From: Planctomycetia bacterium
Lineage (GTDB): Bacteria > Planctomycetota > Planctomycetia > Gemmatales > Gemmataceae
Direction of reading: 5' to 3'
NCBI GenBank assembly: GCA_031441625.1
Contig: JANNQE010000485.1
Coordinates: forward strand, 1 to 39,592
Length of the DNA stretch: 39,592 nt
Part shown: piece after piece, positions 8,527 to 27,657 of the stretch
How the letters are laid out: every line of letters begins with the position of its first letter
Numbering within the stretch: position 1 is the stretch's first letter
Translations under genes and position numbers: made by a program
Notes under the pieces: model-generated
The model's input: only the letters and a program-made list of their open reading frames with translations
Told to the model about the DNA's origin: nothing
The model's database searches: none

Positions 8527-8528
8527 CG

Positions 8529-9017: not shown

Positions 9018-9104
9018 CTCCTATCCGAATCAGTGGTGATCGGTTCGCCGCCATGAAACCCCACACACGCCTAAAGGATCGTCGCATCAGTACAGGACTC
9101 GCGC

Positions 9105-10047: not shown

Positions 10048-11616
10048 CTACGGAAGCGGATCGCCCGCCGACGGGCACACGCGGTACACGTCGTCGGCCA
10101 CGGCGCGGGCGAAGGCTTCCACCTCCCCACGGCCGAACGCATCGGGCGAGCGGCTGCCGATGAGCACGACGAGCCGACCCGCCGGCTCCGACGGCGGGTC
10201 GGACCACCGAGCGGCGGCCCGGCTCAACAGGTGATCCAGTCGCAACCCGGCTTGTGCCTCGGATTCGTCGGCCGGCCCCCACACCCGTCGGCCGGTCTGC
10301 GTCCAGTAGAGTACGTACAGGTCGCCGCCCGCTCCGCTCAATGCCCGCGACGTGACCGGCAATTCCCCCCCGCCGCGCGGCGTCATGTTCACCACACCCC
10401 GACTGGTCTCGCGGTAGCCGACGTTCGGCAAGCAGATGTCCGGGTGGTGGTAGCCGCGGACGGCGTGGGCGGAGGTCCAGTAGATGACCCACACCGTCGC
10501 CGAGCGGCCGAGCGGGTTGCGGTACTCGCGGTGGATGATGGCGTCGGGTTGAAGTAACTCGGTCACGTGCGGCGGCACCGGCGGGCGGGCGACTTCGGCC
10601 CACTCGCCCAGTGTCGGCGACAGGTCGTCGAGCGGCGGCGTGGGGACCGGCGGCGGCACGAGCGTGCGTCCGTGCCACACCACCAGTGCAGATGCGACGA
10701 GGGAGATGGTCAACACGATGGCGACGAACCACGGCGATGCGGGCAGTGGGCCAGTGGCAACAAGTGGTTCGATCGGTTGCGGCTTCGGTGCCACGCACTT
10801 CGCCAGCAGCCACACCACGCCCAGCCCGACCAGCACCGTGCCGAAGCCGAGGGCGTCGTGCCACCCGCCGCGGATGAACTCCGCACCCGCCGCCTCCTGA
10901 ATCACCCCGCTGAGCGTCACCCGCAGCACGTTCACCCCCACCACCACCGGCACCGCCGCGGCGACGAGCAGCACGCCCCGCACCACGCCGAACCGCTTCC
11001 AGAAGGCGACGAACGCCGCGACCGCCGTGAGCGCCGTCAGCGCCTTCACCCCGCTGCACGTCTCCTCGATTCCGAGTTCGCCGCCGGGCAGGACGAGCAG
11101 GAACCCGCCGGGCGGTCGGGTGAGCGGATACCCGCAGGCCGTCAGCACCCACGCGGAGGCGTCCGTCGTCACCGCCTGCAAGCGCTGTTGGATGACGTGC
11201 AGGACCGATTCCGGCGGGGGGAGTGCGAAGGCGACGAAAGCGAGCGGGAAGAGCACCTTCACCACCGCCCGCGGGCCGAACGCGGCGAGCAGCCAGCCGA
11301 CGGCCGCGAGCGTGAGGGCCAGCCACAGCACCCAGAACGGCACACTGCGGGCGTTGAACAGGACGAAGTACCCGGCCCAGCCGACGGGGTACAGCACGGC
11401 ACCGAGGGACGTGAACAGCCCGCCGACGAACGGCCGAGGGGTGGTGGTGGTTACTTCACGCCAGCGCGCGACCGCCGCCAGAATTACACCCGCGAGCACG
11501 AGATAACGGTCCACCGCCGACAGGTCGGCCCGCCAATGGCCGACCACCGCCGCGACCAGGCCGGCGTACCCCGCCGCGAGCACGGCGGGCGGAACGAACT
11601 GGCGGAGGCGGGTCAC
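10048..11616 (-). CDS. Exosortase fused to a C-terminal EpsI-family domain
   Basis: I split this from track ORF 10048-12528 at the in-frame GTG 11616, which forms a GTGA overlap with the upstream stop. It is polytopic. Exosortase catalytic motifs are present: ETCSGVKAL (Cys), NVLRVTLSG (Arg), GGWHDALGFG (His). The C-terminal soluble part has the EpsI-like GYHHPDICLPNVGY motif. Confidence 0.8.
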   Translation of the reverse strand: MTRLRQFVPPAVLAAGYAGLVAAVVGHWRADLSAVDRYLVLAGVILAAVARWREVTTTTPRPFVGGLFTSLGAVLYPVGWAGYFVLFNARSVPFWVLWLALTLAAVGWLLAAFGPRAVVKVLFPLAFVAFALPPPESVLHVIQQRLQAVTTDASAWVLTACGYPLTRPPGGFLLVLPGGELGIEETCSGVKALTALTAVAAFVAFWKRFGVVRGVLLVAAAVPVVVGVNVLRVTLSGVIQEAAGAEFIRGGWHDALGFGTVLVGLGVVWLLAKCVAPKPQPIEPLVATGPLPASPWFVAIVLTISLVASALVVWHGRTLVPPPVPTPPLDDLSPTLGEWAEVARPPVPPHVTELLQPDAIIHREYRNPLGRSATVWVIYWTSAHAVRGYHHPDICLPNVGYRETSRGVVNMTPRGGGELPVTSRALSGAGGDLYVLYWTQTGRRVWGPADESEAQAGLRLDHLLSRAAARWSDPPSEPAGRLVVLIGSRSPDAFGRGEVEAFARAVADDVYRVCPSAGDPLP

Positions 11617-12974
11617 GGCTTCTTCGGCTCGTCCTTCTTGGCGGGCAACTTCTTCGCCACGTCGTCCAGCAGTGCCTTCGCGTCGGCACGGTAAATGAAC
11701 ATGCCGTGCCTCACGCCGAGTGCGCCCGTCAGCAACTTGTGCGCGTCCTCGTGCTTCTGCTTGTCGGCCAGCAGTTTGGCGACGAAGTACGCACCGTCCG
11801 AACTCACCTGCCCGCCGCTGAGCACCGTCGCCAGTGCCCGCTCCGCGTCGTCCGCACGCCCCAGTTTGTACAGGCACCAGCCGAGAACGGCGTACCCAGC
11901 CGCCCCCTTCGGGTTCTGCTTCACCAGCGTGTCGGCCAGCTCCGCCCCCCGCTTCCGCTTCTTCTCGTCGCCCGTCTCGCACAGGCACAGGCAGAGGAAT
12001 GAGAGCGAGTTCAGGTCGCCGGGGGCGTCCTTGGACACGCCTTCGAGCAGCGGCTCGGCGGCGGTCGCGTCCTTCTTGTGTAGCAGCCAGATGGCCCGCG
12101 CCACGGTCGTCTCCTTGCCGCTCGGGTCGAGTTTGCCGGCCGCCTCGATGTACGGCCCGGCCGCGTCCGTCTTGCCCGCGTTCAGCAGCCACAGCCCGTA
12201 CTCCCGCGGCGGCTTGGCGCTCTTCGGGTGGGCGGTCACCGCCTTCTGAAGCCACCCCTCCACCTTCTCGAAGTGGGCGGCCTGCTTGGCGGCGTCGGGT
12301 TCGGCGACGGCCCGCAGTTGCCACTGGTTGGCCAGTTGCAGTTCCGGCGGATCGACACTCGGGTCGTCGGCGAACGCCTGCGTGTACTCCTTCTCCGCCT
12401 CGGCCGGCTTGTCCAGGCGGAACACGGTCGTCGCCAGCCGGCTCCGCATCACGCCGTTCTTCGGGTCGGCGTTCAGCACCTCCAGCGCGTACTCCTTGGC
12501 GGCCGGGTAGTCGCCGCGGGCGAAGCACGTTTCGATCAGCCCGCTCCGCGCTTCACGGGCGAACCGCTTCTTCTGGTCGGCGTCCCAGCGGGCGTCGGCG
12601 GACAGTTCGAGAGCCGCCTTCAGGTTCAGCACCGCATCCGTCAGCCGCCCCTCGCCGAACGCGAAGTTGGCGTTCAGCAGGTAGCCTTCCGGGTGCTTCG
12701 GGTCTTCGACGATGGCCTGCTCGACGAGTGCCCGTGCCCCCTGCCCGTTGCCCGCCTGAAAGAGCCACTGCGCCACCTGCACCTTCGGCGGCGACAAATT
12801 CGGGTTCGTCTTGCCGGCCTTCGCCAGCTTGTCGAGCGCGTCGGGCACCTTGTTCGCCTTGAACAGCTCGAACGCCTGTTCCAGTTCGGTCGGCGTGGCC
12901 GGCTTCGGCGGCGGCGGCGTTTGTGCGAACAGCGGGGCCGCGAGCAGCAGGCACACCAGTGCGGAACGGGTCAC
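11613..12974 (-). CDS. Secreted TPR-repeat protein (PrsT-like context)
   Basis: Start re-called at GTG 12974 (VTRSALVCLLLAAPLFAQ signal peptide), forming a GTGA overlap with the upstream stop. Helical TPR-like repeats run throughout. The tail is Lys-rich. Confidence 0.75.
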   Translation of the reverse strand: MTRSALVCLLLAAPLFAQTPPPPKPATPTELEQAFELFKANKVPDALDKLAKAGKTNPNLSPPKVQVAQWLFQAGNGQGARALVEQAIVEDPKHPEGYLLNANFAFGEGRLTDAVLNLKAALELSADARWDADQKKRFAREARSGLIETCFARGDYPAAKEYALEVLNADPKNGVMRSRLATTVFRLDKPAEAEKEYTQAFADDPSVDPPELQLANQWQLRAVAEPDAAKQAAHFEKVEGWLQKAVTAHPKSAKPPREYGLWLLNAGKTDAAGPYIEAAGKLDPSGKETTVARAIWLLHKKDATAAEPLLEGVSKDAPGDLNSLSFLCLCLCETGDEKKRKRGAELADTLVKQNPKGAAGYAVLGWCLYKLGRADDAERALATVLSGGQVSSDGAYFVAKLLADKQKHEDAHKLLTGALGVRHGMFIYRADAKALLDDVAKKLPAKKDEPKKP

Positions 12975-15079
12975 GGGGTCTCTCGCAGGGTGGCGGGGAG
13001 GGCGTTCAGGTCGTCGTCGTCTTGCGGGGTGCGGGGCAGGCGGCGGGCGGCGGCGACGAGCGGCCGGCCGCGGGCGGTGTCGGTGCGGGTGTGATACGCG
13101 AGCGCCAGGTGAACGCACACGGCGGCGGACGGCGGGCCGAGCGTGCGGGCCGCTTCGAGCGTGGCGATCGCCGCGTCGGTCTGCCCGTTCGCCAACTGCA
13201 CCAGACCGACGACGGCCAACTGCTCGCCGGTCAGGAGTCCGCCGCGGTCGCGCGTGTCGAGCAGCGGGGCCACGTCCTTCATTGCCCGCACCGGGTCGTT
13301 CAATCCCTTCAGCCGCAGGCGACCGAGCATCGCGGCGGTGTCGGCGTCGTCGGGCGCGATGGCGCGAACCCGCTCCAGGGCGAAGGCCGCCTCGCGGGTG
13401 CGCACCGGCTCCCAGCGGGGGCTGCCGTACTCGGCCCAACGAGACAGCAGCACCGCACGAGCGGCGAGTGCGTCCGCGTCGGTCGGCCACCGCAGCAGCG
13501 TGCGGTCGAGCAACTTCAGCGCGTGCGGGGCCAACTCCGCATCGAACGCGGTGTCGGTCAGACCGCGAACCGCCGCCGCCGCGACCGCCGCGTTCTCCCG
13601 CTTCTCCACCCGTTCGAGCCAGTCGGGGAGCAACACACCCAGCCCGGCGTCACGCACCGCACGGGTGTAAATGCGGACGAGCAGCGGCTCGGCCAGGACC
13701 GCCGGCTCGCCCAGGTCGCGGAGCCGCTGCACCGCCCCGTGCGTGTCGCCGGCCTGAAGTTTCAGCCGTACGTCCAGCCGGATGACGCGCGGGTCGGTGG
13801 GGGCAACGGCCGCCGCGTGGCGGAGGGCGATGGCGGCCACGTCCCGCCGCGGGGCGTCAAGGGCGGTCTCGGCGACGAGCAACAGCAGTTGAAGGTTCGT
13901 CGGGTCGGCGGCGGCGGCGGCGGCGAGTGTGCGGAGCGCGTCGTCGGTGCGGTCGGTCGCGCGGAGGAGCAGGGAGTAGAGCGCGAGCAGGCCGGCGTCG
14001 TTTCCGCACGCCTTCAGCCCGGCCCGCACTTCGTCCACGGCCGCCGGCAAGCGGTTCGCCCGCACTTCCGCTTGCGCCAGCCCGTGGTACGCCGCGGCGG
14101 TGGTCGGCGACAGGTCCTTCACCCGCCGCCACACGCGGGCGGTGCGGGCATCGTGCTCCTTCGCCAGCCCGTCCCTCTGCTCGGCGGTCATCTGCTTCGC
14201 CCGGTGCAGTCGGTCGATGGCGGCCGTCAGCCGGTTGCACGACGTGCCGAGCCGAGTGAGCACCGCCGCATCGTCCGACTGCGCCGCGGCGTCGGCCAGT
14301 CGCACCACGGCGGCAATGGCGCTCCCCAGGCGGGCGGGCGGCGGGTCGTCGAACCCGAGCAGGTAGCAGTCGATCAACTCCACCTTCACCGCCGGCGGGT
14401 CGTCGTCCACGCTCGGCGAGTTCAGCACATCGACGACGACATCGTTCACGAACCGGCGGAGCGGGGTGGTGTCGCGTCCGGTGCGGCGGAACAGGTCGTG
14501 CGCGAGCAGTAGGCCGGCGGGCGTGGGTCCACCGGCGGCCGGGTCGGGCAGGCGGTCGAGTTCCGCACGAGCGGTGGTCGGGTCGCCGGCGGCGGTTGCC
14601 GCAAGGGCCACCAGACACCTTGAAATCCAGTCGTCCGGCTCGTGAACCAGCCGCTTGCGGGCTTCGCGGGCGGCCTCGGCCCAACGCCCGCGGCGGGCGT
14701 GCAGGGTGGTCGTCAGCAGGCACAGCCGCGGGTCGTCGGGCGGGGCTTCACCGCTGGAAATGGCTTCGCGGTAGCGGTCGCACAGCGGGTCGGCGGTGAG
14801 CGTGGAAATGGTGTCGAGCGCCGACCACATCTCGGTCTCGTCACCCGCTCGCGCCGCCTTGTCGAACCGCGCCCACTGTTCCACCGCCGCCTGCGCCCGC
14901 TGCCGCTGATCCAGTTTGTTCACCACGACCACCGCACCGATTCCACCGGCGACGACCCCCAGCAGTAGCCCCACACCGACCGCCCACCGCACCCACGGGC
15001 GGGCGGCGCGGACGCGGTCCCACAGGCGGGCGAACCAGCCGGGGCGTGCGGGCGAAGTGGTCGGCGGGGGTACAGCCAT
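12971..15079 (-). CDS. Membrane-anchored TPR-like helical-repeat protein
   Basis: 702 aa. It has a single N-terminal TM (WAVGVGLLLGVVAGGIGAVVVV) followed by Ala/Leu/Arg-rich helical repeats. Confidence 0.7.
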   Translation of the reverse strand: MAVPPPTTSPARPGWFARLWDRVRAARPWVRWAVGVGLLLGVVAGGIGAVVVVNKLDQRQRAQAAVEQWARFDKAARAGDETEMWSALDTISTLTADPLCDRYREAISSGEAPPDDPRLCLLTTTLHARRGRWAEAAREARKRLVHEPDDWISRCLVALAATAAGDPTTARAELDRLPDPAAGGPTPAGLLLAHDLFRRTGRDTTPLRRFVNDVVVDVLNSPSVDDDPPAVKVELIDCYLLGFDDPPPARLGSAIAAVVRLADAAAQSDDAAVLTRLGTSCNRLTAAIDRLHRAKQMTAEQRDGLAKEHDARTARVWRRVKDLSPTTAAAYHGLAQAEVRANRLPAAVDEVRAGLKACGNDAGLLALYSLLLRATDRTDDALRTLAAAAAADPTNLQLLLLVAETALDAPRRDVAAIALRHAAAVAPTDPRVIRLDVRLKLQAGDTHGAVQRLRDLGEPAVLAEPLLVRIYTRAVRDAGLGVLLPDWLERVEKRENAAVAAAAVRGLTDTAFDAELAPHALKLLDRTLLRWPTDADALAARAVLLSRWAEYGSPRWEPVRTREAAFALERVRAIAPDDADTAAMLGRLRLKGLNDPVRAMKDVAPLLDTRDRGGLLTGEQLAVVGLVQLANGQTDAAIATLEAARTLGPPSAAVCVHLALAYHTRTDTARGRPLVAAARRLPRTPQDDDDLNALPATLRETP

Positions 15080-15095: not shown

Positions 15096-16322
15096 TCAGG
15101 TCATGGTAGGGCGGTCTGCGGTGCGGCGGAACACCTCGACAAGTTCACGGGTGAAGCGACCTTCATCGAACGCACGCAATGCCGTTTCCCGGGCGGCGAG
15201 TCCGAGCCGGGTTCGCAGCGCCGTGTCCGTCACCAGTCGGTGAATCGCGGCCGCGAGCGCATCGACATTGCCAGGCGGGTGGCCGATGGCATCCACCCCG
15301 TCGGTGAACAGCTCCACCGCCCCGCCCGCCGCCGACACCACCATCGCACGCCCGCAACTCATGGCTTCCGCGATCGTCAGGCCGAATGGCTCCGGGCGGG
15401 TGCTGGCGTGAACCACCACGTCGAGCATCCGGTAGACGTCCACCGGGTCGGGTTGAAACGGCACGAACTCCACGCGGCCGATCAGCCCGAGTCGGTCGGC
15501 CATTCGCTCCAACTCAACCTGCGTCCACTGCGAGCCGGCGGTGGTGTAGATCGGCCCGCCGACGATGTAGCCCCGCACCCGCAATTCGAGTGGCAACCGG
15601 GCGAGCGCGTTCAGGAAGACGGCGTGCCCCTTCCAGTTCGCGTACGTGGCGACGAGGCCGACGCGGATCACACTTTCCGGTGGCACAGGCATTCCTGCCT
15701 GTGGGAGAGGATCACAGGCAGGAATGCCTGTGCCACCGGCGGGTGCGAAGTGTGCCGTGTCCACGCCGTTCCGCACCACAGAAATCGGCACGCCGGGGAG
15801 CAGCGTCTCCGTGTCTCGACGCACGGCGTCGGAGATCGCCACGGCCCCGGCCACGCCACGCTTCGCCATCTCCAGCAGCCGGGCCATGAGCGGCCGCTCG
15901 GAATAGAAGTCGTGAACGTGCCACGAAATGGGCACCCCGGCCGGCACCGTCACGCGCGCCAACAGGTGCGTTTTCAGGCCGTTGGAATGCACCAACTGAG
16001 GTCGCAGGCGGCGGAGGAGTGTGCGAAATCGGCGGAGGTAGTTCGCGGCGGGAAGAGCGGAAGTGAACGCCGTGCGTGCGAGTGCGAACCCCTTCGCGGC
16101 CCGCCCGCCGTCGCGGAACTGCGTGTCGCCCACTGCCGCCAACGCCGGCGGTAGCGGCAGCACGTCCACCGTCGCGCCGGCGTGTTCGAGTGCCGCACGC
16201 AACGGCCCGTCGGCGAGCAGCACCACCGCGGGGTGATGTTCGCGGACGGCACGCACGGCGGCGAGCAGCACCCGCTCGGCCCCGCCGACCTGCCCGGCCG
16301 GGTTCAGGAAGACGACCCGCAC
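15096..16322 (-). CDS. Glycosyltransferase family 4 (GT-B)
   Basis: Start re-called at GTG 16322 (VRVVFLNPAGQVGGAER), with GGGGAG upstream. The EX7E region is STRPEPFGLTIAEAMSCGRAMVVS. It contains the palindromic insert at 15677-15739. Confidence 0.8.
   Translation of the reverse strand: MRVVFLNPAGQVGGAERVLLAAVRAVREHHPAVVLLADGPLRAALEHAGATVDVLPLPPALAAVGDTQFRDGGRAAKGFALARTAFTSALPAANYLRRFRTLLRRLRPQLVHSNGLKTHLLARVTVPAGVPISWHVHDFYSERPLMARLLEMAKRGVAGAVAISDAVRRDTETLLPGVPISVVRNGVDTAHFAPAGGTGIPACDPLPQAGMPVPPESVIRVGLVATYANWKGHAVFLNALARLPLELRVRGYIVGGPIYTTAGSQWTQVELERMADRLGLIGRVEFVPFQPDPVDVYRMLDVVVHASTRPEPFGLTIAEAMSCGRAMVVSAAGGAVELFTDGVDAIGHPPGNVDALAAAIHRLVTDTALRTRLGLAARETALRAFDEGRFTRELVEVFRRTADRPTMT
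15677..15739. repeat. Perfect 27-bp inverted repeat with a 9-nt loop (63 nt) embedded in-frame in the GT4 gene
   Basis: CCGGTGGCACAGGCATTCCTGCCTGTG (15677-15703), loop GGAGAGGAT, then CACAGGCAGGAATGCCTGTGCCACCGG (15713-15739). Each arm is also internally self-complementary (CACAGGCA-GGAA-TGCCTGTG). Confidence 0.95.
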
Positions 16323-17449
16323 GGCAACTCCCCATTCAGGATGCGACGGTACGCCGCGGCAATAGTGCCGGCGTGATTCGCCCAACTGTACCGGCTCGCC
16401 CAGGCGATGCGAGGCGTGAGGTCGACGAGCGGGTGGTTCAACAACTCCTGGACGGCTTCGGACCACGCCGGCACGTCGCCCACCGCGCGATACGTCACCA
16501 CCTCGCCGCCCACTTCGCAGAGCGCCGGCAGGTCGCTGGCGACCACCGCCGCCCCGCACGCGAGTGCCTCGATCACCGGCAGGCCGAACCCCTCGGCTTC
16601 GCTCGGCACCAGCACCACGGGCGCCCGCCGATACACCTCGGCGAGTTCGGTTCGGCTGACGCCGGACTTATGTAGGACGGCGTTGTTCAGCCCGAGACGG
16701 TTCAACTGCTCGCGGTGCCCGGCCGTCCACTCGCCGCCCACCTTCACCAGCGTCAGTTCCGGCACCGTCCGCCTCACCTCAGCCACCACGTCGAGCAGCA
16801 CGTCGATCCGCTTCCGCGGGATGCAACTGCCGACGTGCATCACCCACGGCCGGCCGGCGAGGTCGTCGAGCCACGGAACAGGAACTTCGGGATTCGCACG
16901 CGGGGTGAACTCGGCGGCCACGCCATACGGTGCGGACACCAGCTTCGCCGGATCGACGAGACCGTACCGCTTCAACTCGTCGCCCACTGCGGTCGTGCTG
17001 TGAAACACCACCGCCGCTTTCTGTAGGCCTGCAAGTGTGCGACGGGCGAGTCGGCGGAACCACCTCGGCCGCGGGTCACGGGGCGGGTCGAGCAGACAAC
17101 GGAAGGCATCGAGGTCGTGGCAGTACACGCCGGTACGTGCGGCCGGCAGCGCGTGCACGAGTTGGGCGTAGGAGTGATCGACGACGTGAAACAGTTCGAA
17201 CCGATTCGCTTCACTCCGAGCGTACTTCGGAAACGTGACGAACCGATTCAGCAGCCGGTCGGCGTTGAACGCGGCGTTCCGCTTCCCCAGCGTCGGCAAC
17301 CGGGTGAAGACGCGACGAAACGGCGGACAGACGCGCTCGGCGGACACATCGCCGGGCAGATGTGCCGTCAGCATGTCCGCGCACAGGTCCATGCTCGGCC
17401 ACCCTTCGGCCGGGAAGTCGGGCAGCACGGCGAGGCGGGCGGGAATCAC
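16304..17449 (-). CDS. Glycosyltransferase family 4 (GT-B)
   Basis: Start re-called at GTG 17449 (VIPARLAVLPDF), forming a GTGA overlap with the SET gene stop. The signature is PSEAEGFGLPVIEALACGAAVVASD. Confidence 0.8.
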   Translation of the reverse strand: MIPARLAVLPDFPAEGWPSMDLCADMLTAHLPGDVSAERVCPPFRRVFTRLPTLGKRNAAFNADRLLNRFVTFPKYARSEANRFELFHVVDHSYAQLVHALPAARTGVYCHDLDAFRCLLDPPRDPRPRWFRRLARRTLAGLQKAAVVFHSTTAVGDELKRYGLVDPAKLVSAPYGVAAEFTPRANPEVPVPWLDDLAGRPWVMHVGSCIPRKRIDVLLDVVAEVRRTVPELTLVKVGGEWTAGHREQLNRLGLNNAVLHKSGVSRTELAEVYRRAPVVLVPSEAEGFGLPVIEALACGAAVVASDLPALCEVGGEVVTYRAVGDVPAWSEAVQELLNHPLVDLTPRIAWASRYSWANHAGTIAAAYRRILNGELPCGSSS

Positions 17450-17844
17450 TGCGTCTCCAGCGTGCCGTAGTCGATGGTCAGTTCCTCGCCGGCGGTCACG
17501 GCGCGGGTCGTCTCGTAGTAGTCGCCGCCGTCGAGTTGCCGCAGGTTCGGCGCGTCGGCGTGGTTCAGGTACGTCACCACGTCCACCACGCGGAAGCCGT
17601 GCGGCGGCAGGTAGTACACGCCGGCGTCCCACAGGCAGTAGGTTTCCACCAGCTTGCGGGCGTGCGGCGGCAACGCGGTCACGTCGGCTTCGGGCACCGG
17701 CACCCACGGCCGCGGCGGGGCGAACAGGTCTCGCGTGCCGGCCGGGATGTCCGTCAGGGCGAACACGCCGATGCCGTGCACGGGCGACGGGGCAAGCCCG
17801 ACGCGGGTGGTGGTGAGGTCGGCGAGGAGGGTGTCGGCGGTCAT
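17446..17844 (-). CDS. Minimal SET-domain protein (putative protein-lysine methyltransferase), 132 aa
   Basis: Start re-called at ATG 17844 (MTADTLL). SET motifs are present: HGIGVFALTDIPAGT, YLNHADAPN (NHSxxPN-like) and GEELTIDYG (ELxxDY). Confidence 0.8.
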   Translation of the reverse strand: MTADTLLADLTTTRVGLAPSPVHGIGVFALTDIPAGTRDLFAPPRPWVPVPEADVTALPPHARKLVETYCLWDAGVYYLPPHGFRVVDVVTYLNHADAPNLRQLDGGDYYETTRAVTAGEELTIDYGTLETQ

Positions 17845-17885
17845 GTCGCAAGGTGTACGATCCACCCGCCGATCAGTCCACCGGG

Positions 17886-18968
17886 TCACGACCGGGTCAG
17901 CACGCGGGCGAGGACATCGCCCACCCGCGGGGCGAGTGAGTCGTATTCGAAATGCCGCCGTGCCATCGCGACACACTCCGGGCGGTGAGAGAAATCGGTG
18001 CCCCGTTGCACCAGTTCCACCACCCGTTCGGCCAGCCTCGTCGGGTACTCGGGGTCGGTTTCCCCCCGAAATTCGACCAGCATCGGCGGGGGCAGGATGC
18101 GGGCCGCTTCGCCCACACGGCTGGCGAGCACGAACCGCCCGGCGGCCAGGTAGAGCGGTAGTTTGCCGGTCGTCCGCACGTTCCCGATCACGTCGTTCGA
18201 TTGCGTGGAGAGGGCGATGTCGATCTCACGCAGACGGGCCGGCAGGTCGGAGTACGACACACGCCCGGCAAACTCGATGAGGTCAGAAACGCCCGCCTCG
18301 GCCGCTCGCCGTTTGAGGATGTCGATCCCACTCCCGTCGCCGATCATCACCCCGCGGACCGGAAACCGCCCCTTCAACGCGCCGAGCAGTTCGACCAGTT
18401 CCAGGCCGTAGCAACTTTGCCGGCTCGATACCCACACCGAGCTGCCGACCACGCCAATGGTCAGCGGACGAGTGGTTTTCAAGGGTGGAGTCGCGGGTGC
18501 GAACCGATCCACGGAGACCCCGTCCGGGATGAAGGTGGCGTTTACACCGCGACGGCGGAGCAGTTCACGGTGCAGGCTGCCGCGGACGACCACCGCCGAC
18601 GCCGCACGGAGGGCGTACGCTTCCACCGCGCGGGTGGCGGTCATTCCCACCACCCCGCGGCCGAGCACCCGGCCGAGTTCGACCACCGCGTCGCCGGTGT
18701 CCAACACGAACGGCGTCCCCAGGGCGTGCTTCACCACCCCGGCCGCGACCACGCCCGCCGCGGCGAGGTCGAGGACGTAACACACGGCGGGGCGGAGGGC
18801 GGACAACTCCCACACCATCCCGCCGAGTGCCCGCGCTCCCCGGTCTGGGCGGAACACGAACCGGCAATCGAACCGGCCGGCCAGCCGGGACGCGAACGCG
18901 GCGGCCCGCTCGCCCATCGCTGAGGCCGGGCCGCCGTTCACCACGAACGCCACCCGCGGGCGGGTCAT
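17886..18968 (-). CDS. Glycosyltransferase (GT-B fold, GT1/GT4-like)
   Basis: Start re-called at ATG 18968 (MTRPRVAFVVNGG), forming an ATGA overlap with the upstream stop. It has a two-Rossmann-like layout. The signature is weaker than in its neighbours. Confidence 0.6.
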   Translation of the reverse strand: MTRPRVAFVVNGGPASAMGERAAAFASRLAGRFDCRFVFRPDRGARALGGMVWELSALRPAVCYVLDLAAAGVVAAGVVKHALGTPFVLDTGDAVVELGRVLGRGVVGMTATRAVEAYALRAASAVVVRGSLHRELLRRRGVNATFIPDGVSVDRFAPATPPLKTTRPLTIGVVGSSVWVSSRQSCYGLELVELLGALKGRFPVRGVMIGDGSGIDILKRRAAEAGVSDLIEFAGRVSYSDLPARLREIDIALSTQSNDVIGNVRTTGKLPLYLAAGRFVLASRVGEAARILPPPMLVEFRGETDPEYPTRLAERVVELVQRGTDFSHRPECVAMARRHFEYDSLAPRVGDVLARVLTRS

Positions 18969-20098
18969 CGCCGGCCCTCGGCGGCCAGTTGGCGGTACAC
19001 GGCCATCGTCTCTTCCGCCGTGCGGTCCCAGGTGAACGGTTCCACCCGCCGGCGGGCGGCGCAGCCCACGGCCTCCCGCACGCTCGGGCTGTCGCGCAGA
19101 GTGGCGAGGTGGGCTGCGAGGGACTGTACGTCCCACGGCTCATCGGTCACGAAGCCGTCCACGCCGGGGGTGATGAGTTCGGCCGCCCCCGCCGCCCGGC
19201 TGGTGACGACGGGCAACCCGCTCGCCATCGCCTCCGTCACGACCAGCCCGAACGAGTCGTACACGGTGGGGAACAGCAGCACGTCGACGGCGGCGAAGAA
19301 GCGTTCGATCTGCTTCGTGTGCGGATGGAACTGCACCCGATCCGCCACGCCCGTTTCGTCCGCCACCCGCCGCACGTCGGTCGCGTCCGACCCGCTGACG
19401 ACGAGCAGCCGAACGCCGGGGGTCGCCGCCACCGCCCGCACCGCCGCCGCCGCACCCTTCTTCAGGTCGCCCACGTACAACGCGACGAACTCGCCGGTCG
19501 GAGTGCCGAGTTCGGATCGCACCGCCGCACGGTATCGGTCACGGTTGTCCGGGTGGAAGCGGTCCACGTCGGTCCCGTGGTACACCACCTCCACGCCCGC
19601 CGTGCGGCCATAGTGCTCGGCCAGGTTCGCCCGGATGAGGTGCGAGACGGCGATCACCCGCCGGGTCTGCGGCTGGCAAAGGGCCTGCTTTTCCAGGCGC
19701 GAGACCAGCGGGCGCGTGAGTCGCTGCTTCCACCCCGGCGGCATCCCGTGGCGGGTGAGTGCGGCGTCCCACGCCGGCTGACAGAAGTGCGCCGTCGCCA
19801 GGTTGTGCCGCAGCCCGCACAGCCCCTGGGCGTGAACGATGTCGAACCGCCCGCGGACGGCCAGCGTACCCGGCACGACGAACGACATGATGGACGCCAG
19901 CGCGTTCGGCCGCCACGCCGGGACGTGGTGGAACGTGATGCCGGCCGTGTCCGGGTCGTCCACCGTGTTCGTGAACACGTGAACGTCGTGTTCGGCCCGG
20001 TAGCGACGAGCCAGTTCGACGACGTACCGGCTGTGCCCGCCGTGGCGGTGGTAGTCGTGGACGACGAACGCGACCTTCAGCCGACCGGAGGGGGTCAT
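18965..20098 (-). CDS. Glycosyltransferase family 4
   Basis: Start re-called at ATG 20098 (MTPSGRLKVAFVVHDYHRHGGHSRY), an ATGA overlap. The signature is PTVYDSFGLVVTEAMASGLPVVTS. Confidence 0.8.
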   Translation of the reverse strand: MTPSGRLKVAFVVHDYHRHGGHSRYVVELARRYRAEHDVHVFTNTVDDPDTAGITFHHVPAWRPNALASIMSFVVPGTLAVRGRFDIVHAQGLCGLRHNLATAHFCQPAWDAALTRHGMPPGWKQRLTRPLVSRLEKQALCQPQTRRVIAVSHLIRANLAEHYGRTAGVEVVYHGTDVDRFHPDNRDRYRAAVRSELGTPTGEFVALYVGDLKKGAAAAVRAVAATPGVRLLVVSGSDATDVRRVADETGVADRVQFHPHTKQIERFFAAVDVLLFPTVYDSFGLVVTEAMASGLPVVTSRAAGAAELITPGVDGFVTDEPWDVQSLAAHLATLRDSPSVREAVGCAARRRVEPFTWDRTAEETMAVYRQLAAEGRR

Positions 20099-21216
20099 CC
20101 GCCGCCCTCCGCCCGTAGGGTCGCAACGAGCCGCTCCAGGGCGAACCGTTCGGCGTACCACCGCCGGCCGGCCTCGCCGAGTGCGGTTCGCTCGGCGGGT
20201 GAGAGTGCCAGCGCCCTTTCCACCGCGGCGATCAGGGCGGGTGCGGACGGTGTCGGGGCGAGTGTCACCCCGTTGTCAGCGGTCGCCCACTCGCCTTCGC
20301 TCAGCGCGCCCAGGTTGGTCACGAGTGGCACGCCGAGAGCGAGGGCTGACGTGGCCGAGGTGCGGCGCCCGCTCACCCCGTCGGGGTACGGCTGCACCAT
20401 CAGGTCGCACGCGGCGAGGTGGGCGGCGGTGTCGGCGGCGGGCCGTTCGCCAGTCGCCACCACACGCCCGCTCAACTCCGGATGCGCCGCGTCGAAGCGG
20501 TCGCGGAACTCGGCGCTCCCCCGCCCGATCAGCACCGCCACGCGGTCGGCCGACGCATTCAGCACGCCCACGAGGGTCGGTTCGAGCAGGTCCACAACAA
20601 TCCTGCTGTACGTCCCGAAGTGCCCGACGCGAACGCCGGCCATGAGGACGGCGGGCACCGCATCGGTGGGCAGGTTCGACGGCACCGGCAGCCACTCCGG
20701 GTTGACGCACCGCGGGGCGAGGCGGCGGAGCATCTCGCCCCAGGCGTCGGTGGTGACGAACAGGCGGCGGGCGGAGTTCGCCACCCACCGGGCCATCAAG
20801 CGGGTCACGGCGGCGATCAGGTTGTGCCGGAGCGGGCGGCGGACGAACGGGAACGCCACCTCGTGGAACACGACCCACACCGGGGCGATCCGCCGCAACC
20901 GCCGCACCCACCACGCGAACGGCAGGTTCATGGCTTTCATCCCGAACGCATGGGGCACGTACTGAATCAGCACGCGATCCGGCCGCTCTCGCGCCAGCAC
21001 CTTTTCCACCTCCGCCCGCCCCCGCCGCCCGAAGTGGTCCGGCAGGCGAACCACTGACACCCCGTTGTCACTGACACTCGGGGAGCCGCACGGCGGGGCG
21101 AACACGGTCACGCGGTCGCCGGCGGCGGCCAGCCCACGACACACCTGTCGGGTGTAGTCGGCCACCCCGCCGAACTGCGGCGGGTACTCGCCGGTCAGGA
21201 TCGCCCAGTGGGTCAT
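20095..21216 (-). CDS. Glycosyltransferase (GT-B, GT1/GT4-like)
   Basis: Start re-called at ATG 21216 (MTHWAILTGEYPPQFGGVADYTRQV), an ATGA overlap. The N-terminal GG-loop is typical of GT4-like enzymes. Confidence 0.65.
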   Translation of the reverse strand: MTHWAILTGEYPPQFGGVADYTRQVCRGLAAAGDRVTVFAPPCGSPSVSDNGVSVVRLPDHFGRRGRAEVEKVLARERPDRVLIQYVPHAFGMKAMNLPFAWWVRRLRRIAPVWVVFHEVAFPFVRRPLRHNLIAAVTRLMARWVANSARRLFVTTDAWGEMLRRLAPRCVNPEWLPVPSNLPTDAVPAVLMAGVRVGHFGTYSRIVVDLLEPTLVGVLNASADRVAVLIGRGSAEFRDRFDAAHPELSGRVVATGERPAADTAAHLAACDLMVQPYPDGVSGRRTSATSALALGVPLVTNLGALSEGEWATADNGVTLAPTPSAPALIAAVERALALSPAERTALGEAGRRWYAERFALERLVATLRAEGGG

Positions 21217-22400
21217 ATCCCTACCACCGACTTCAGGAGCGGCACCAACCGATCCACATGCCCCTCGGCGGTGAACCGCCGAGACGCCTCCCACGCGCCC
21301 ACCCGCAGCCGCTGGTGGTGGTCGGCGTCGGCCAGCGCCCGCACGAGCGCGGCGGCCAACTGGTCCGCGGTCGGCCGATCACCGGGGCCCATCTCTCCCG
21401 ACACTCCGGCGGTCAGCCAGTCGGGGATACCGCCGGTGGCGAACGCGACCGCCGGTAGCCCGACACATCCGGCTTCGATGCCCACCAGCCCGAACGGTTC
21501 CGGCCACACGCTCGGCACGGCCAACACGTCCGCGGTTCGCATCTCCGCCATCACGTCGTCGGTCCCCAGCCAGCCGAGGAACTCGCACGGCACGCCGAGG
21601 CGGTTCACTTCCGCCTCAAAGGAACTCCGGTCCGGTCCGTCGCCGGCAACGACCAGTTTCAACGGTCGCCCGAGCCGGGCTGTCGCCGCGGGCATCGCCG
21701 ACACCAATTCCCGCCAGCCCTTGAGTGGTGTCAACCGCCCGACGAACAGCACCCGGTCGGTGCGGGAACGGACGGCCGGCGGGGTCGGGTCGGGTTCCGC
21801 GTGCGGGGGGAAGAGGGGAACCACCTTCACCCGCTCCGCCGGAGCCCCGTTGCGGACGACTTCGGCGGCCATGTGGCGGCTGGCCACGAGGACGGCACGA
21901 TACCGCCCGAGGGTCCGCTGCCGGGAGCGACTGTTCAGGTAGAGTCGCCCGGCCGTCAGCGGGTTCCACCCGCCGCACCTCTTCGGGTAGTACACCGCCA
22001 GACACGCCGGGCCGAGAGGCCGGGCACACGCCTGCCACCCGGCGGCGGCGTGGCATTTGGTCCCGCTCACGCACATCCCGCCGTAGTTGTGGGCGTACCG
22101 CACGGCAGGATACCGGCGGGCGAGGGCGTCGTCGGCCGCGGGGTCGGGCAGGTCGTGGGTGAACACCGCGTCCGGACGGAAACGGTCGGCCGCGGCGACC
22201 GCACTCTCGGGATCAGACACGGGAAACAGCGGCACGTCGGGGCAGTGGTCGAGAATGGTTGTTTGCCCGCTGCCCGCCGGGTGTGCGACTGCAACCGCTA
22301 GTTCGACTCCCCGCTCCCGCAACAGCGGCAGCACCGCCCGCAGGTACGTTTCCACCCCGCCGACAACGTCCGCGTGAGTGGTGGCGACGAGCACCTTCAT
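21213..22400 (-). CDS. Glycosyltransferase family 4
   Basis: Start re-called at ATG 22400 (MKVLVATTHADVVGGVETY), an ATGA overlap. The signature is PSVWPEPFGLVGIEAGCVGLPAVA. Confidence 0.8.
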   Translation of the reverse strand: MKVLVATTHADVVGGVETYLRAVLPLLRERGVELAVAVAHPAGSGQTTILDHCPDVPLFPVSDPESAVAAADRFRPDAVFTHDLPDPAADDALARRYPAVRYAHNYGGMCVSGTKCHAAAGWQACARPLGPACLAVYYPKRCGGWNPLTAGRLYLNSRSRQRTLGRYRAVLVASRHMAAEVVRNGAPAERVKVVPLFPPHAEPDPTPPAVRSRTDRVLFVGRLTPLKGWRELVSAMPAATARLGRPLKLVVAGDGPDRSSFEAEVNRLGVPCEFLGWLGTDDVMAEMRTADVLAVPSVWPEPFGLVGIEAGCVGLPAVAFATGGIPDWLTAGVSGEMGPGDRPTADQLAAALVRALADADHHQRLRVGAWEASRRFTAEGHVDRLVPLLKSVVGI

Positions 22401-23488
22401 ATGTCGGCACCCATGTACGCCGCCAAACACCGCCGCACCACTGCCGGCCAGGTGAACCGCTCCAGCACCCGCACCCGGCCGGCGTCACCCATTCGCCGGG
22501 CATCTTCCTGGTGATCGCGGAGCCATTCCAGCTTCGCCCGCAGTGCCGCCGGGTCGTTCGGTGGGACGACGAACCCGGTCACCCCGTCGGCCACTACTTC
22601 GGGCAGGCTGGCCACGTCCGTCACGACCGCCGCCGCCCCGCAGGCCATCCCTTCGAGTGGCGTTTGCCCCAGAAGTTCCGGCACCCTGGACTCGTTCCCG
22701 TAACAGTCGCGGTAAACGCTCGGGAGCGCCACGCACATCGCCCGGCGATAGGCACGCACCACCTCGGCATCGTCGCAATCCTGTCGGAACACCACCCGCT
22801 TGTCGGTGGCCAGTTTCCGCAACTTGGCGTGGTACGGTTCGGAATATGGACGACCAATGACTTCCAGTTTCAATCCAGGCGGAAGGGCTTCGACTAGCAC
22901 ATCAATCCCTTTGTGCGGCAACAGCCGACCGACGAACACGACGAGCGGCTCGCGTGGCACGTCCGGGTCCGGCGAGAACTTGTCGGTGTCCACCCCGCCG
23001 AGAATCACCCGATGCCGCGGGTCGGCGGTCCCGCCGGCGAGCGCCCGGCTGTACTCGCTGATGTGTAGGTGGCCGTGAAACCAGTCGGCGGTCTTCAACC
23101 GTGCCCCGAGGCACCACCCGCCGCCGCCGAGGTCGGAGGCGAACACTCGCCGCCCGCTCAGCCGGCCGAGCAGGGCGGCCAACTCCGACGCCAGGACGTT
23201 CGTCTGGTGGGCGTGGACCACTTCGGCCGACGCCACCGCACGGACGAGGCCGGGGTGCAGCGGGTTCGATGGCTGCCCGCGAACGGCCCACGCCGGCCCG
23301 AGCACCCGCACCCGCAGCCCGTCGGCGGTGGTGAACCGCTCCGCCCGGTCGCCGAACGACACCAGCGTGGTGGGCACGACACGGGCCATGTGCCGGGCCA
23401 ACTCGAACGCATACCGCTCGCCCCCGCCGTACACCCCACCGCGGCCGAACAGGGCGGGGGTCAAGTGGGTGACACGAGGGCGGTTCAC
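22397..23488 (-). CDS. Glycosyltransferase family 4
   Basis: Start re-called at GTG 23488 (VNRPRVTHLTPALFGRGGVYGGGERY), a GTGA overlap. Supporting motifs are VFVGRLLPHKGID and LLGQTPLEGMACGAAAVVTD. Confidence 0.8.
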   Translation of the reverse strand: MNRPRVTHLTPALFGRGGVYGGGERYAFELARHMARVVPTTLVSFGDRAERFTTADGLRVRVLGPAWAVRGQPSNPLHPGLVRAVASAEVVHAHQTNVLASELAALLGRLSGRRVFASDLGGGGWCLGARLKTADWFHGHLHISEYSRALAGGTADPRHRVILGGVDTDKFSPDPDVPREPLVVFVGRLLPHKGIDVLVEALPPGLKLEVIGRPYSEPYHAKLRKLATDKRVVFRQDCDDAEVVRAYRRAMCVALPSVYRDCYGNESRVPELLGQTPLEGMACGAAAVVTDVASLPEVVADGVTGFVVPPNDPAALRAKLEWLRDHQEDARRMGDAGRVRVLERFTWPAVVRRCLAAYMGADI

Positions 23489-24243
23489 GAACGCCCCCAC
23501 ACACGACGAAGGCGATTCGTGGCGCGAGCGATTAACCCGGTCACCCCGCCGATGGCGTTCTCGGCCCTCAACCGCCAGCGGGGGTACGGGTGGTAGCGGT
23601 TCACGAATCTCTCCAGTTCGGCGGCCGTGTTCTCCAGTCCGTGAACCGTGACCTCGGAGAACCGGAACTCGTTTTCCCAAAACAGCCACGTCACCTTCCG
23701 TTCGTCCGTCAACCGGCGAAAGTAAGACGGCGGCAGGTTGAACCGCGGGTGCGCGTGAATCATGTGGAACTTGGGAATGAACCGGACGGCCGCGGCGATC
23801 TCGTCTGTGTCGATGAGCCAACGATGGTGCGACAGTCCGGCGGTTCGGTTCGACTCCCACCCGCGGCACGTTTCGGCCACCCGTGACGGCACCTCGATGT
23901 ATCCCCTCTTGGCGACCCGAATCATCTCCGTGCACACCCACAGCGGGTCGCGGATGTCTTCGAGCACGTGCGAGCAGATGACGAAATCGATCTCCTTGTC
24001 GCGGAACGGGAGCGGGTCGGCGCAGATGTCGAGTCGGTGCCATGTGTCAGCAGTGAAGTGCTCCACGTCCCCGCCCTGGCTCCCGGGCAGGCCGACCGTC
24101 TTGTAATACCCGCGGGTTTGGTACGGTTCGGCGTCCACCACATGATCCGCCCGGTTGAACGGACACGCCCACCCGCCGATGTCGAGCACCACGTCGGACG
24201 GGCCGACCCGTCGCAGGATTTCGGCTTCATTCGGCGGAAACAT
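23485..24243 (-). CDS. Class I SAM-dependent methyltransferase
   Basis: Start at ATG 24243 (MFPPNEAEIL), with GTG 24249 as an alternative. Motif I is VVLDIGGWACP. A Methyltransf_11-like IDFVICSHVLEDI motif is present. It overlaps the wzt 3' end by 17 nt. Confidence 0.75.
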   Translation of the reverse strand: MFPPNEAEILRRVGPSDVVLDIGGWACPFNRADHVVDAEPYQTRGYYKTVGLPGSQGGDVEHFTADTWHRLDICADPLPFRDKEIDFVICSHVLEDIRDPLWVCTEMIRVAKRGYIEVPSRVAETCRGWESNRTAGLSHHRWLIDTDEIAAAVRFIPKFHMIHAHPRFNLPPSYFRRLTDERKVTWLFWENEFRFSEVTVHGLENTAAELERFVNRYHPYPRWRLRAENAIGGVTGLIARATNRLRRVWGRS

Positions 24244-25507: not shown

Positions 25508-25510
25508 GGG

Positions 25511-27654: not shown

Positions 27655-27657
27655 GGT

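What the first reader, a model, noticed from the sequence alone, without database searches (positions are those of the whole stretch)
17446..17844. Minimal SET-domain methyltransferase translationally coupled inside a glycosyltransferase operon
The 132-aa product carries the three SET hallmarks: GIGVFA...G, LNHADAPN and GEELTIDYG. It is about the size of the minimal viral and archaeal SET proteins.

Its stop overlaps the GTG start of the downstream GT4 gene (GTGA at 17446-17449). It sits between two glycosyltransferases.

SET domains are protein-lysine methyltransferases, known from chromatin, Rubisco LSMT, ribosomal proteins, and some secreted effectors of intracellular bacteria. I know of no described role for one in polysaccharide or O-antigen assembly.

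It could methylate a pathway enzyme, a glycan-carrying protein or an exosortase substrate. It could also have been recruited to a non-protein acceptor.
Basis: partly seen in the sequence, partly recalled or inferred. Interest (0 to 1): 0.7.

Follow-up and report, generated by a model that had tools for sequence, protein, structure and literature searches.

The report
Small SET methyltransferase lodged among glycosyltransferases
A real but ordinary 132-residue bacterial SET-domain methyltransferase gene was inserted, in one narrow group of Fimbriiglobus-like planctomycetes, between two glycosyltransferase genes of a polysaccharide/exosortase locus, and comparisons give no sign that it belongs to the sugar pathway.

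Summary
Window 17446-17844 (-) encodes a 132-aa protein with a full-length Pfam SET match above threshold. The GxG, NH..PN and EL..DY motifs are intact. The AlphaFold model matches only SET methyltransferases. GC3 is 0.95 and dN/dS is 0.15-0.43. Its TGA overlaps the GTG of the downstream GT4 (GTGA), and a GT lies 41 nt upstream.

The protein belongs to a large family of stand-alone 130-150-aa prokaryotic SET proteins found in Gemmatales, Chitinophagaceae and Gemmatimonadaceae.

- Six close lineages (77-89% identity) keep it in the same slot: GT-SET-GT4-GT4-TPR-TPR-exosortase.
- Equally close orthologues (76-87%) and all more distant ones sit in unrelated contexts.
- Of 60 metagenomic loci with enough sequence upstream of a homologue of the coupled GT4, only one has SET.
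- In L124 the same GT array is intact, and the two flanking GTs overlap directly with no SET between them.
- No residue separates glycan-context from other orthologues.
- The locus already has two class I methyltransferases beside Wzm/Wzt.

Best reading: a cytoplasmic protein-lysine methyltransferase with a target outside the locus, captured into the operon in one lineage. This is a new member of a known kind, of low to moderate interest.

The parts
17446..17844 (-). SET-domain methyltransferase CDS, 132 aa, ATG start, TGA stop
   Evidence: Searches give the ORF and Pfam SET at 35.5 bits. Searches give the fold. One search gives GC3 0.95 and dN/dS 0.15-0.43.
17758..17775 (-). Motif I, G24-I-G26-V-F-A (the GxG AdoMet-binding turn)
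   Evidence: It aligns to MLL1 GRGLF. G24 and G26 are invariant in 20 homologues.
17545..17568 (-). L93-N94-H95-A-D-A-P99-N100, the NHxxxPN AdoMet-binding and pseudoknot motif
   Evidence: It aligns to MLL1 FINHSCEPN. L93, N94, H95, P99 and N100 are invariant.
17464..17490 (-). G119-E-E-L-T-I-D-Y126-G, the ELxxDY motif with the catalytic tyrosine
   Evidence: It aligns to MLL1 GEELTYDY. G119, E121, L122 and Y126 are invariant.
17446..17449 (-). GTGA: the SET stop (TGA) overlaps the GTG start of the downstream GT4
   Evidence: L009 has the same GTGA, L001 has a TTGA overlap as called, L091 has a 4-nt overlap, and L011 has an ATG 6 nt downstream.
17845..17885 (-). 41-nt spacer between the stop of the upstream GT and the SET start codon
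   Evidence: No consensus promoter or terminator lies in it. In L090/L091 the upstream GT overlaps SET by 4 nt.
16304..17449 (-). Downstream GT4 glycosyltransferase, coupled to SET
   Evidence: Glycos_transf_1 82.7 bits. Homologues occur in 80 metagenomic loci, almost all without SET.
17886..18971 (-). Upstream putative glycosyltransferase (divergent GT-B/GT4-like)
   Evidence: Glyco_trans_1_4 26.4 bits, just below the cutoff, and stp3 E 3e-12. Its homologue abuts the GT4 directly in L124, L111 and L128.
15096..31015 (-). The surrounding co-directional glycan locus. It holds about nine GT4-type genes, Methyltransf_11 (23485-24300), Wzt (24227-25510), Wzm (25511-26344), a 440-aa protein with no hit (26335-27657) and an FkbM methyltransferase (27658-28566).
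10048..15079 (-). Downstream end of the locus. Two TPR proteins (about 11613-12974 and 12971-15079) are followed by an exosortase with a C-terminal EpsI domain (within ORF 10048-12528).
   Evidence: The order is the same in L001.

Best explanation
The gene encodes a cytoplasmic, AdoMet-dependent protein-lysine methyltransferase of the widespread prokaryotic family of stand-alone minimal SET proteins. AdoMet would be held by the GxG turn (G24-G26) and N94-H95. The substrate amine would enter a channel closed by Y126 of the ELxxDY motif. There are no pre-SET or post-SET zinc modules; the protein ends 6 residues after Y126.

Its target is most likely a cellular protein encoded outside this locus, and the target is unidentified. 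By analogy with Go1-SET/MC1-alpha and cpnSET/Hc1, a small basic DNA-binding protein or another housekeeping protein is the best guess.

In one shallow Fimbriiglobus-like lineage the gene was inserted between two already coupled glycosyltransferase genes of an ABC-transporter (Wzm/Wzt) and exosortase polysaccharide locus. Since then it has been co-transcribed and translationally coupled with them. Operon membership sets its expression, not its chemistry.

Shown here: the SET identity, intact motifs, purifying selection, tight coupling, clade-limited synteny, and the same GT array without SET elsewhere. Inferred: enzymatic activity, a protein-lysine substrate, and a substrate outside the locus.
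For: All catalytic motif residues are invariant in 20 homologues spanning 47-89% identity.

Family breadth:
- 186 close homologues, all 131-151 aa.
- A profile search finds 758 50%-identity cluster representatives at E<=1e-10, mostly 130-150 aa single-domain proteins.
- Hosts are Gemmatales, Chitinophagaceae and other Bacteroidota, and Gemmatimonadaceae.

Context is heterogeneous. The 77 co-directional neighbours within 200 nt, taken from 85 loci, hit 52 different Pfam families. The most frequent family is in 9.

Orthologues of 59-87% identity lie in unrelated contexts: L010, L005, P0016, L092, L094, L003, L006, L008 and L012-L014.

Only 1 of 60 loci with a homologue of the coupled GT4 and at least 420 nt upstream contains SET. 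L124 keeps the order GT4_20095 - GT4_18965 - GT_17886 - GT4_16304 - GT4_15096, with the two flanking genes overlapping by 8 nt (ATGTCTGA) and no SET.

No alignment column separates glycan-context from non-glycan-context orthologues. In bootstraps the six glycan-context sequences are not recovered as a separate clade (2/100).

The locus already has FkbM and Methyltransf_11 class I methyltransferases next to Wzm/Wzt. That is the usual chain-modifying set in ABC-transporter-dependent pathways (established knowledge of WbdD-type termination).

SET GC3 is 0.95, against 0.81-0.84 for the flanking GTs, which hints at a different history.
Against: - The slot is kept in six distinct metagenomic lineages (77-89% identity), with 4-nt overlaps on one or both sides. 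Selection may therefore favour co-expression with the GTs.
- In another phylum, nine Bacteroidota species place the orthologue last in a DegT - UGDH - epimerase - RmlD-like array. Two more have a GT2 upstream, two a GH63-like gene and two LpxR. A recurrent link to envelope glycans cannot be excluded.
- No substrate is identified, and no experiment exists for any member of this family.
- MAG and contig data cannot show whether genomes with a SET elsewhere also carry a second copy in the glycan locus.
Confidence: 0.62

Rival explanations
1. In the Fimbriiglobus-like lineage the SET enzyme has a job tied to the locus. It would methylate lysines of a pathway component (a GT4, a TPR scaffold protein, the exosortase/EpsI) or of PEP-CTERM cargo before export. 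The effect would be to tune polysaccharide or exosortase output.
For: The slot is the same in six lineages, with start/stop overlaps. Selection is purifying. No terminator-like site separates it from its neighbours. The locus encodes two large TPR proteins and an exosortase, which are plausible protein partners.
Against: The same GT array works without SET in relatives (L124, L111, L128), and 59 of 60 GT4-homologue loci lack it. Orthologues with an essentially identical SET-I region live in unrelated contexts, and no diagnostic residues exist. The protein has no signal peptide, so any cargo would have to be modified before export (sequence).
Confidence: 0.2
2. The enzyme has been recruited to a non-protein amine. 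It would N-methylate an amino sugar, either on a nucleotide-sugar or on the growing glycan. The primary amine would take the place of the lysine epsilon-amine.
For: Nine Bacteroidota loci put the orthologue at the end of an operon that begins with a DegT-family sugar aminotransferase, followed by a nucleotide-sugar dehydrogenase, an epimerase and an RmlD-like reductase. The window copy sits among GTs. According to the review PMC3980110, Aravind et al. 2011 proposed that the SET fold arose from the carbohydrate-binding SAF superfamily.
Against: To my knowledge no SET enzyme is known to methylate a non-protein substrate. No sugar aminotransferase was found among the annotated genes of the window. 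Most family members have no glycan neighbours. Class I methyltransferases for glycan methylation are already in the locus.
Confidence: 0.05
3. The protein is a catalytically inactive SET fold that serves as a binding or scaffolding subunit. Alternatively, it is a neutral passenger with no current function.
For: There is no post-SET module, and the C-terminus ends only 6 residues after the catalytic Tyr, so the lysine channel may be incomplete in a monomer (sequence). Foldseek TM-scores are only 0.4-0.5.
Against: All AdoMet-binding and catalytic residues are invariant from 47 to 89% identity across three phyla. dN/dS is 0.15-0.43. vSET has a comparably minimal architecture and is active as a dimer (established knowledge; 3kma is among the top fold hits).
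Confidence: 0.06

Closest known systems
vSET (PBCV-1 A612L; PDB 3kma), the minimal viral SET histone H3K27 methyltransferase
   Same: It is a single SET domain of about 120-130 aa, with no pre-SET or post-SET zinc modules and the same three motifs. It is among the top Foldseek hits (E 2.5e-7, TM 0.52 on the target length).
   Different: Sequence identity is about 24%. The host is a virus of a eukaryote with histones as substrate, whereas this is a free-living planctomycete. The dimerisation that completes the vSET active site was not tested here. This family has its own conserved insert, LVETYCLxD...LPPxGF.
Go1-SET of Methanosarcina mazei and cpnSET of Chlamydophila pneumoniae (prokaryotic SET enzymes that methylate the cell's own DNA-binding proteins MC1-alpha and Hc1)
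   Same: These are stand-alone prokaryotic SET proteins acting on endogenous small basic proteins (PMC3980110). They are the best functional analogy for a non-effector bacterial SET.
   Different: No sequence comparison was made here. The substrates of the present family are unknown. The chlamydial proteins may also be secreted effectors.
MLL1/KMT2A SET domain (PDB 2w5y, 7w67 and others)
   Same: It is the best sequence and fold match in the PDB (profile E 3e-5, Foldseek E 5e-8). The GxG, NHSxxPN and GEELTYDY motifs align residue for residue.
   Different: MLL1 has a post-SET zinc module, needs WDR5/RbBP5/ASH2L, and acts on H3K4. The Cys of NHSC is Asp/Ala/Thr here, and there is no post-SET.
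Secreted bacterial SET effectors (Chlamydia NUE, Legionella RomA/LegAS4, Bacillus anthracis BaSET)
   Same: They share the SET catalytic domain in a bacterium (PMC3980110, PMC10117894).
   Different: Those come from pathogens and carry extra targeting regions (ankyrin repeats, NLS, secretion signals). This one is SET-only, its relatives are assigned to MAGs such as Fimbriiglobus sp. and Chitinophagaceae bacterium, and it has no extra domain.

Membership tests
SET-domain methyltransferases (Pfam PF00856) | Match to the family profile above the curated threshold over the whole domain | tested here: met
   35.5 bits against a gathering score of 22.4, covering model positions 1-105 of 105.
SET-domain methyltransferases (Pfam PF00856) | GxG AdoMet-binding turn | tested here: met
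   G24-I-G26 is invariant in 20 homologues and aligns to the GRG of MLL1.
SET-domain methyltransferases (Pfam PF00856) | NHxxxPN motif | tested here: met
   N94, H95, P99 and N100 are invariant and align to NHSCEPN of MLL1.
SET-domain methyltransferases (Pfam PF00856) | ELxxDY motif with the catalytic tyrosine | tested here: met
   E121, L122 and Y126 are invariant and align to EELTYDY of MLL1.
SET-domain methyltransferases (Pfam PF00856) | SET beta-fold with the C-terminal pseudoknot | tested here: inconclusive
   The AF2 model has pLDDT 84.9. All 50 listed Foldseek PDB hits are SET-domain proteins with probability 1.0, but TM-scores are only 0.4-0.5. The knot itself was not inspected.
SET-domain methyltransferases (Pfam PF00856) | AdoMet-dependent methyl transfer to a protein lysine | not testable with these tools
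   This needs the recombinant enzyme and substrates.
Minimal stand-alone SET proteins (vSET / Go1-SET type) | A single SET domain of about 150 aa or less, without Cys-rich pre-SET or post-SET modules | tested here: met
   It is 132 aa, with only the SET hit in Pfam. It has one Cys (C70) and ends 6 residues after Y126.
Minimal stand-alone SET proteins (vSET / Go1-SET type) | Homodimer that completes the active site (vSET) | not tested
   No multimer prediction tool was available.
Integral component of the Wzm/Wzt-exosortase polysaccharide pathway | Co-occurrence with the pathway genes in related loci | tested here: not met
   Only 1 of 60 loci with a homologue of the coupled GT4 has SET. L124, L111 and L128 have the flanking GT homologues abutting each other.
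Integral component of the Wzm/Wzt-exosortase polysaccharide pathway | The gene family is mainly found in glycan loci | tested here: not met
   Operon-type neighbours fall in 52 Pfam families, and about a quarter are envelope-glycan related, drawn from about five lineages. The Gemmatales orthologues L003, L005, L006, L008, L010, L012, L014, L092, L094 and P0016 show no glycan genes next to SET.
Integral component of the Wzm/Wzt-exosortase polysaccharide pathway | Conserved slot in the closest relatives | tested here: met
   The window, L009, L089, L011, L001/L002 and L090/L091 all have GT-SET-GT4. L010, L005 and P0016, at similar identity, do not.
Secreted SET effectors of intracellular bacteria | Extra host-targeting or secretion regions and a host-associated lifestyle | tested here: not met
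   It has no domain beyond SET. The window carries DUF1501 and PSCyt2/PSD1 genes, which I take from prior knowledge to be typical of planctomycetes, and the closest named relatives are Fimbriiglobus sp. MAGs. Secretion signals as such were not tested.
Anti-phage defence systems (PADLOC) | Match to a known defence protein model | tested here: not met
   SET and the four flanking GTs gave no PADLOC hit. The Pfam GT4-conflict hits are weaker than the generic GT4 hits.

The most novel reading that the evidence does not exclude
This family of minimal SET proteins may have been recruited repeatedly into envelope-glycan operons in unrelated phyla. Examples are the GT4/exosortase array in Fimbriiglobus and the DegT - UGDH - epimerase - RmlD-like array in nine Bacteroidota species. 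Under this reading its real substrate is connected to glycan synthesis. The substrate could be the primary amine of an amino sugar, or a lysine on a conserved glycan-assembly protein. Either would be the first SET enzyme with a role in polysaccharide biosynthesis.
Probability: 0.1. Interest if true: 0.75.

Novelty: new member of a known kind. Interest (0 to 1): 0.25.

Why it matters
Stand-alone SET proteins are common in free-living bacteria, and none of this family has a known substrate, so any conserved genomic linkage would be a useful lead. Here the linkage to a glycosyltransferase operon is shallow. It marks a gene capture in one Fimbriiglobus-like lineage rather than a new step of polysaccharide assembly.

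The result mainly warns against reading function from one operon. It leaves one modest lead: the family also ends a nucleotide-amino-sugar operon in some Bacteroidota. Those organisms, or a culturable Fimbriiglobus relative, would be the place to look for the endogenous substrate of bacterial SET enzymes.

Tried and rejected
- A single-sequence phmmer search against the PDB gave only marginal MLL1 hits (E 0.027). The profile search and the fold search were needed.
- NCBIfam has no specific model for the SET protein.
- PADLOC gave no hit, so a defence-system reading was rejected.
- Rfam and tRNA scans of the window found nothing.
- The sigma-70 promoter and terminator scan found nothing useful inside the operon: 0 promoters and 2 weak terminator-like sites inside genes, fewer than in shuffles. 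Planctomycete promoters may not fit the consensus.
- An NJ tree with bootstrap could not resolve whether the glycan-context copies form a clade. The six alone were recovered in 2/100 replicates, and the shallow clade that includes non-glycan copies in 51/100. The direction of the moves inside that clade is therefore unresolved.
- A search for a neighbour conserved across the whole family failed. The largest neighbour cluster covers 17 of 88 loci, and it is a convergent LytTR response regulator.
- Literature searches found no report of a SET gene in an EPS, O-antigen or exosortase locus. Aravind et al. 2011 is not held.
- Enrichment of glycan genes next to SET was not tested statistically, because no proper genomic background was available.
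Full report
**1. The observation**

On the minus strand an ORF runs from ATG at 17844 to TGA at 17446 and encodes 132 aa. A longer GTG-initiated version (176 aa, from 17976) would overlap the upstream gene. It is not supported by homologues, whose N-termini all begin at the MT.. position.

- The product matches Pfam SET (PF00856) over the whole model at 35.5 bits, against a gathering score of 22.4.
They align residue for residue with MLL1 in a profile search of the PDB, as sPIHGrGLF, FINHSCEPN and GEELTYDY (E 3e-5).
- An AlphaFold2 model built on 20 homologues has mean pLDDT 84.9.
- Foldseek against the PDB returns 332 matches at E<=1e-3. All 50 listed are SET-domain proteins, led by MLL1, the minimal viral vSET (3kma) and S. 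pombe Set7. TM-scores are modest, at 0.4-0.5.
- The ORF has GC3 0.95 in a 69% GC window. Pairwise dN/dS against six orthologues is 0.15-0.43.

It is a real, selected gene.

The TGA stop overlaps a GTG (GTGA, 17449-17446). This GTG opens the reading frame of a GT4 glycosyltransferase (Glycos_transf_1, 82.7 bits). That the GTG is the start is supported by the conserved N-terminus RLAVLPDFPAEGWPSMDL in orthologues, and by the equivalent starts in L009 (the same GTGA), L011 (ATG 6 nt after the stop) and L124 (ATG). Forty-one nucleotides upstream of SET, a divergent GT-like gene ends (17886-18971).

**2. The surroundings**

The window carries DUF1501 and PSCyt2/PSD1 genes, which I take from prior knowledge to be typical of planctomycetes. 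The closest named relatives are Fimbriiglobus sp. MAGs.

From 31015 down to about 10048 the minus strand carries one long co-directional locus:

- about nine GT4-type genes;
- an FkbM-type methyltransferase and a Methyltransf_11 methyltransferase;
- the Wzm/Wzt ABC exporter (Wzt has a weak Wzt_C hit);
- two large TPR proteins;
- an exosortase with a C-terminal EpsI domain.

No defence-system model matches SET or its neighbours. No RNA family or tRNA was found.

**3. The family**

The word-indexed search found 186 homologues. All 120 listed are 131-151 aa and carry only PF00856 (one also carries PF21549). They run from 89% identity down to about 48%.

A profile search of 1.84 billion cluster representatives found 3819 proteins at E<=1e-3 and 758 at E<=1e-10. 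Most are 130-150-aa single-domain proteins.

In species-representative genomes, the 80 loci kept are from Fimbriiglobus/Gemmatales MAGs, many Chitinophagaceae and other Bacteroidota, and Gemmatimonadaceae.

Thirty-two positions are invariant across 20 sequences of 47-89% identity. They include every AdoMet-binding and catalytic residue, plus a family-specific block, LVETYCLxD...LPPxGF.

The NCBI name for one Fimbriiglobus homologue is already "SET domain-containing protein-lysine N-methyltransferase". Reviews list SET genes in hundreds of free-living bacteria, including Gemmata, with no known endogenous role (PMC3980110, PMC10117894).

**4. Is the position conserved? Starting from SET**

Glycan-locus copies:

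| Locus | Identity to window SET | Arrangement |
|---|---|---|
| L009 | 89% | Same slot |
| L089 | 85% | GT - SET, next gene overlaps by 4 nt |
| L011 | 79% | Same slot |
| L001/L002 | 77% | GT-SET-GT4-GT4-TPR-TPR-exosortase |
| L090/L091 | 77% | 4-nt overlaps on both sides in L091 |

Copies elsewhere:

| Locus | Identity | Neighbourhood |
|---|---|---|
| L010 | 87% | Amidohydrolase downstream |
| L005 | 81% | Fatty-acid desaturase, hypothetical proteins |
| P0016 | 81% | PAP2-like gene |
| L092 | 76% | Small hypothetical proteins |
| L094 | 77% | Small hypothetical proteins |
| L003 | 68% | Topoisomerase IV |
| L006 | 69% | DUF1501, with a second SET 2 kb away |
| L008 | 66% | Prophage edge |
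| L012-L014 | 58-66% | L013 acyltransferase-3 (divergent), L014 aldehyde dehydrogenase, L012 no Pfam hit |

A bootstrapped NJ tree cannot separate the two groups. The six glycan-context sequences alone were recovered in 2/100 replicates. The shallow clade containing them plus four non-glycan sequences was recovered in 51/100. No alignment column distinguishes glycan-context from non-glycan-context orthologues.

Across 85 non-redundant loci, the 77 co-directional neighbours within 200 nt fall into 52 Pfam families. The most frequent are RmlD-like (9), a class II aminoacyl-tRNA synthetase (6), GT4 (4) and META (4).

**5. Is the position conserved? Starting from the glycan locus**

A metagenome scan with the coupled GT4 returned 80 loci at 41-68% identity.

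- Sixty have at least 420 nt upstream of the match. Only one contains a SET gene, and it is the same contig as L090.
- In nineteen, another GT ends within 200 nt of the GT4 start, leaving no room for SET. In L111, L124 and L128 that gene is the homologue of the window's upstream GT.
- L124 keeps the order GT4_20095 - GT4_18965 - GT_17886 - GT4_16304 - GT4_15096. The stop of the GT_17886 homologue overlaps the ATG of the GT4 (ATGTCTGA).

The same array therefore exists and is tightly coupled without SET. The most economical reading is an insertion of SET between two already coupled GT genes in one sublineage. The higher GC3 of SET (0.95) compared with its flanking GTs (0.81-0.84) is consistent with a different history, but it is not proof.

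**6. Mechanism**

The fold and motifs, which are shown, point to an AdoMet-dependent methyltransferase, which is inferred. To my knowledge every characterised SET enzyme methylates protein lysines.

The protein has no signal peptide and no extra domain, so it should act in the cytoplasm. Three findings argue that its substrate is not specific to this locus:

- orthologues with an unchanged substrate-facing region sit in dozens of unrelated contexts;
- the GT array functions without it in relatives;
- the locus already has two class I methyltransferases adjacent to Wzm/Wzt.

I therefore take it to be a protein-lysine methyltransferase with a target outside the locus. By analogy with Go1-SET/MC1-alpha and cpnSET/Hc1 (PMC3980110), that target would be a small basic or housekeeping protein. 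In this lineage its expression has become tied to the polysaccharide operon. Confidence is about 0.6.

**7. Rivals**

- A locus-specific protein target (a GT, a TPR protein, the exosortase, or PEP-CTERM cargo) is supported by the conserved slot and overlaps in six lineages. It is contradicted by sections 4 and 5. Confidence is about 0.2.
- A non-protein amine acceptor such as an amino sugar is suggested only by the nine Bacteroidota loci in which SET ends a DegT - UGDH - epimerase - RmlD-like operon, and by the proposed SAF ancestry of the fold. Confidence is about 0.05.
- An inactive or scaffolding SET is unlikely, given the invariant catalytic residues and purifying selection. Confidence is about 0.06.

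**8. Comparison and novelty**

It works like, and passes the sequence tests for, a minimal stand-alone SET methyltransferase of the vSET/Go1-SET type. It is not a secreted effector type, and it fails the tests for an integral glycan-pathway component.

I found no published description of a SET gene in an EPS or exosortase locus, so the placement is a small new observation. The gene itself is a new member of a known kind. Interest is 0.25.

The most novel reading still allowed is recurrent recruitment of this family to envelope-glycan operons because its substrate belongs to glycan synthesis. I put this at about 0.1 probability. If true, it would merit about 0.75.

Noticed in passing
L015, L018, L024, L025, L036, L042, L047, L048, L085 (for example L024 3457-8393): In nine low-GC Bacteroidota MAGs the SET orthologue is the last gene of a conserved co-directional array. 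The order is DegT-family aminotransferase, UDP-Glc/GDP-Man dehydrogenase, epimerase/dehydratase, RmlD-like reductase, SET. SET starts 45-75 nt after the RmlD-like gene. This is a second, independent adjacency to sugar genes.
   Followed up: partly
L006 6044-10595: A Gemmatales contig carries two SET genes 2 kb apart. One is the 131-aa orthologue at 8001-8396 and the other a distant 142-aa paralogue at 10167-10595. A prokaryotic YEATS-domain (PF20305) protein lies two genes upstream, at 6044-6466.
   Followed up: no
L124 4386-6627: The window's GT array is present in the same order but without SET. The stop of the upstream-GT homologue overlaps the ATG of the GT4 homologue (ATGTCTGA).
   Followed up: yes
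L011 1879-3297: The gene after SET begins with the N-terminus of the window's 16304-17449 GT4 type (MPPTLAVLPDFPAEGWPS). From about 2221 onward it matches the window's 15096-16343 GT4 type. This may be a deletion or fusion between two adjacent GT4 paralogues.
   Followed up: partly
window 10048-12528 (-): An exosortase with a C-terminal EpsI domain lies at the downstream end of the locus, after two TPR proteins. Its matches are XrtW/XrtD-like and far below the equivalog cutoffs. It is probably an unclassified exosortase subtype.
   Followed up: partly
window 23485-28566 (-): The locus is of the ABC-transporter-dependent type. It has Wzm, Wzt (with a weak Wzt_C carbohydrate-binding hit), an FkbM methyltransferase, a Methyltransf_11 methyltransferase and a 440-aa protein with no Pfam or NCBIfam hit (26335-27657). 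These are candidates for chain-terminal modification and its recognition.
   Followed up: no
window 17446-17844 compared with 15096-18971: SET has GC3 0.95. The GT genes on either side have 0.81-0.84, and other genes in the window reach 0.90-0.95 (Wzm, Wzt, 26335-27657, DUF1501).
   Followed up: partly
window 8526-10048: This stretch has no ORF with coding-like third-position GC. ORFs 9105-9659 (+) and 9824-11326 (-) have no NCBIfam hit, and there is no Rfam or tRNA match.
   Followed up: no
L008 6842-8402: A SET orthologue (66% identity) lies 266 nt from a phage-type integrase, at the edge of a prophage with terminase, portal and protease genes.
   Followed up: no
window 6470-6931 (-): A DUF5615 protein sits next to the FtsX-like permease gene. 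From prior knowledge DUF5615 proteins are often paired with DUF433 in toxin-antitoxin-like modules.
   Followed up: no
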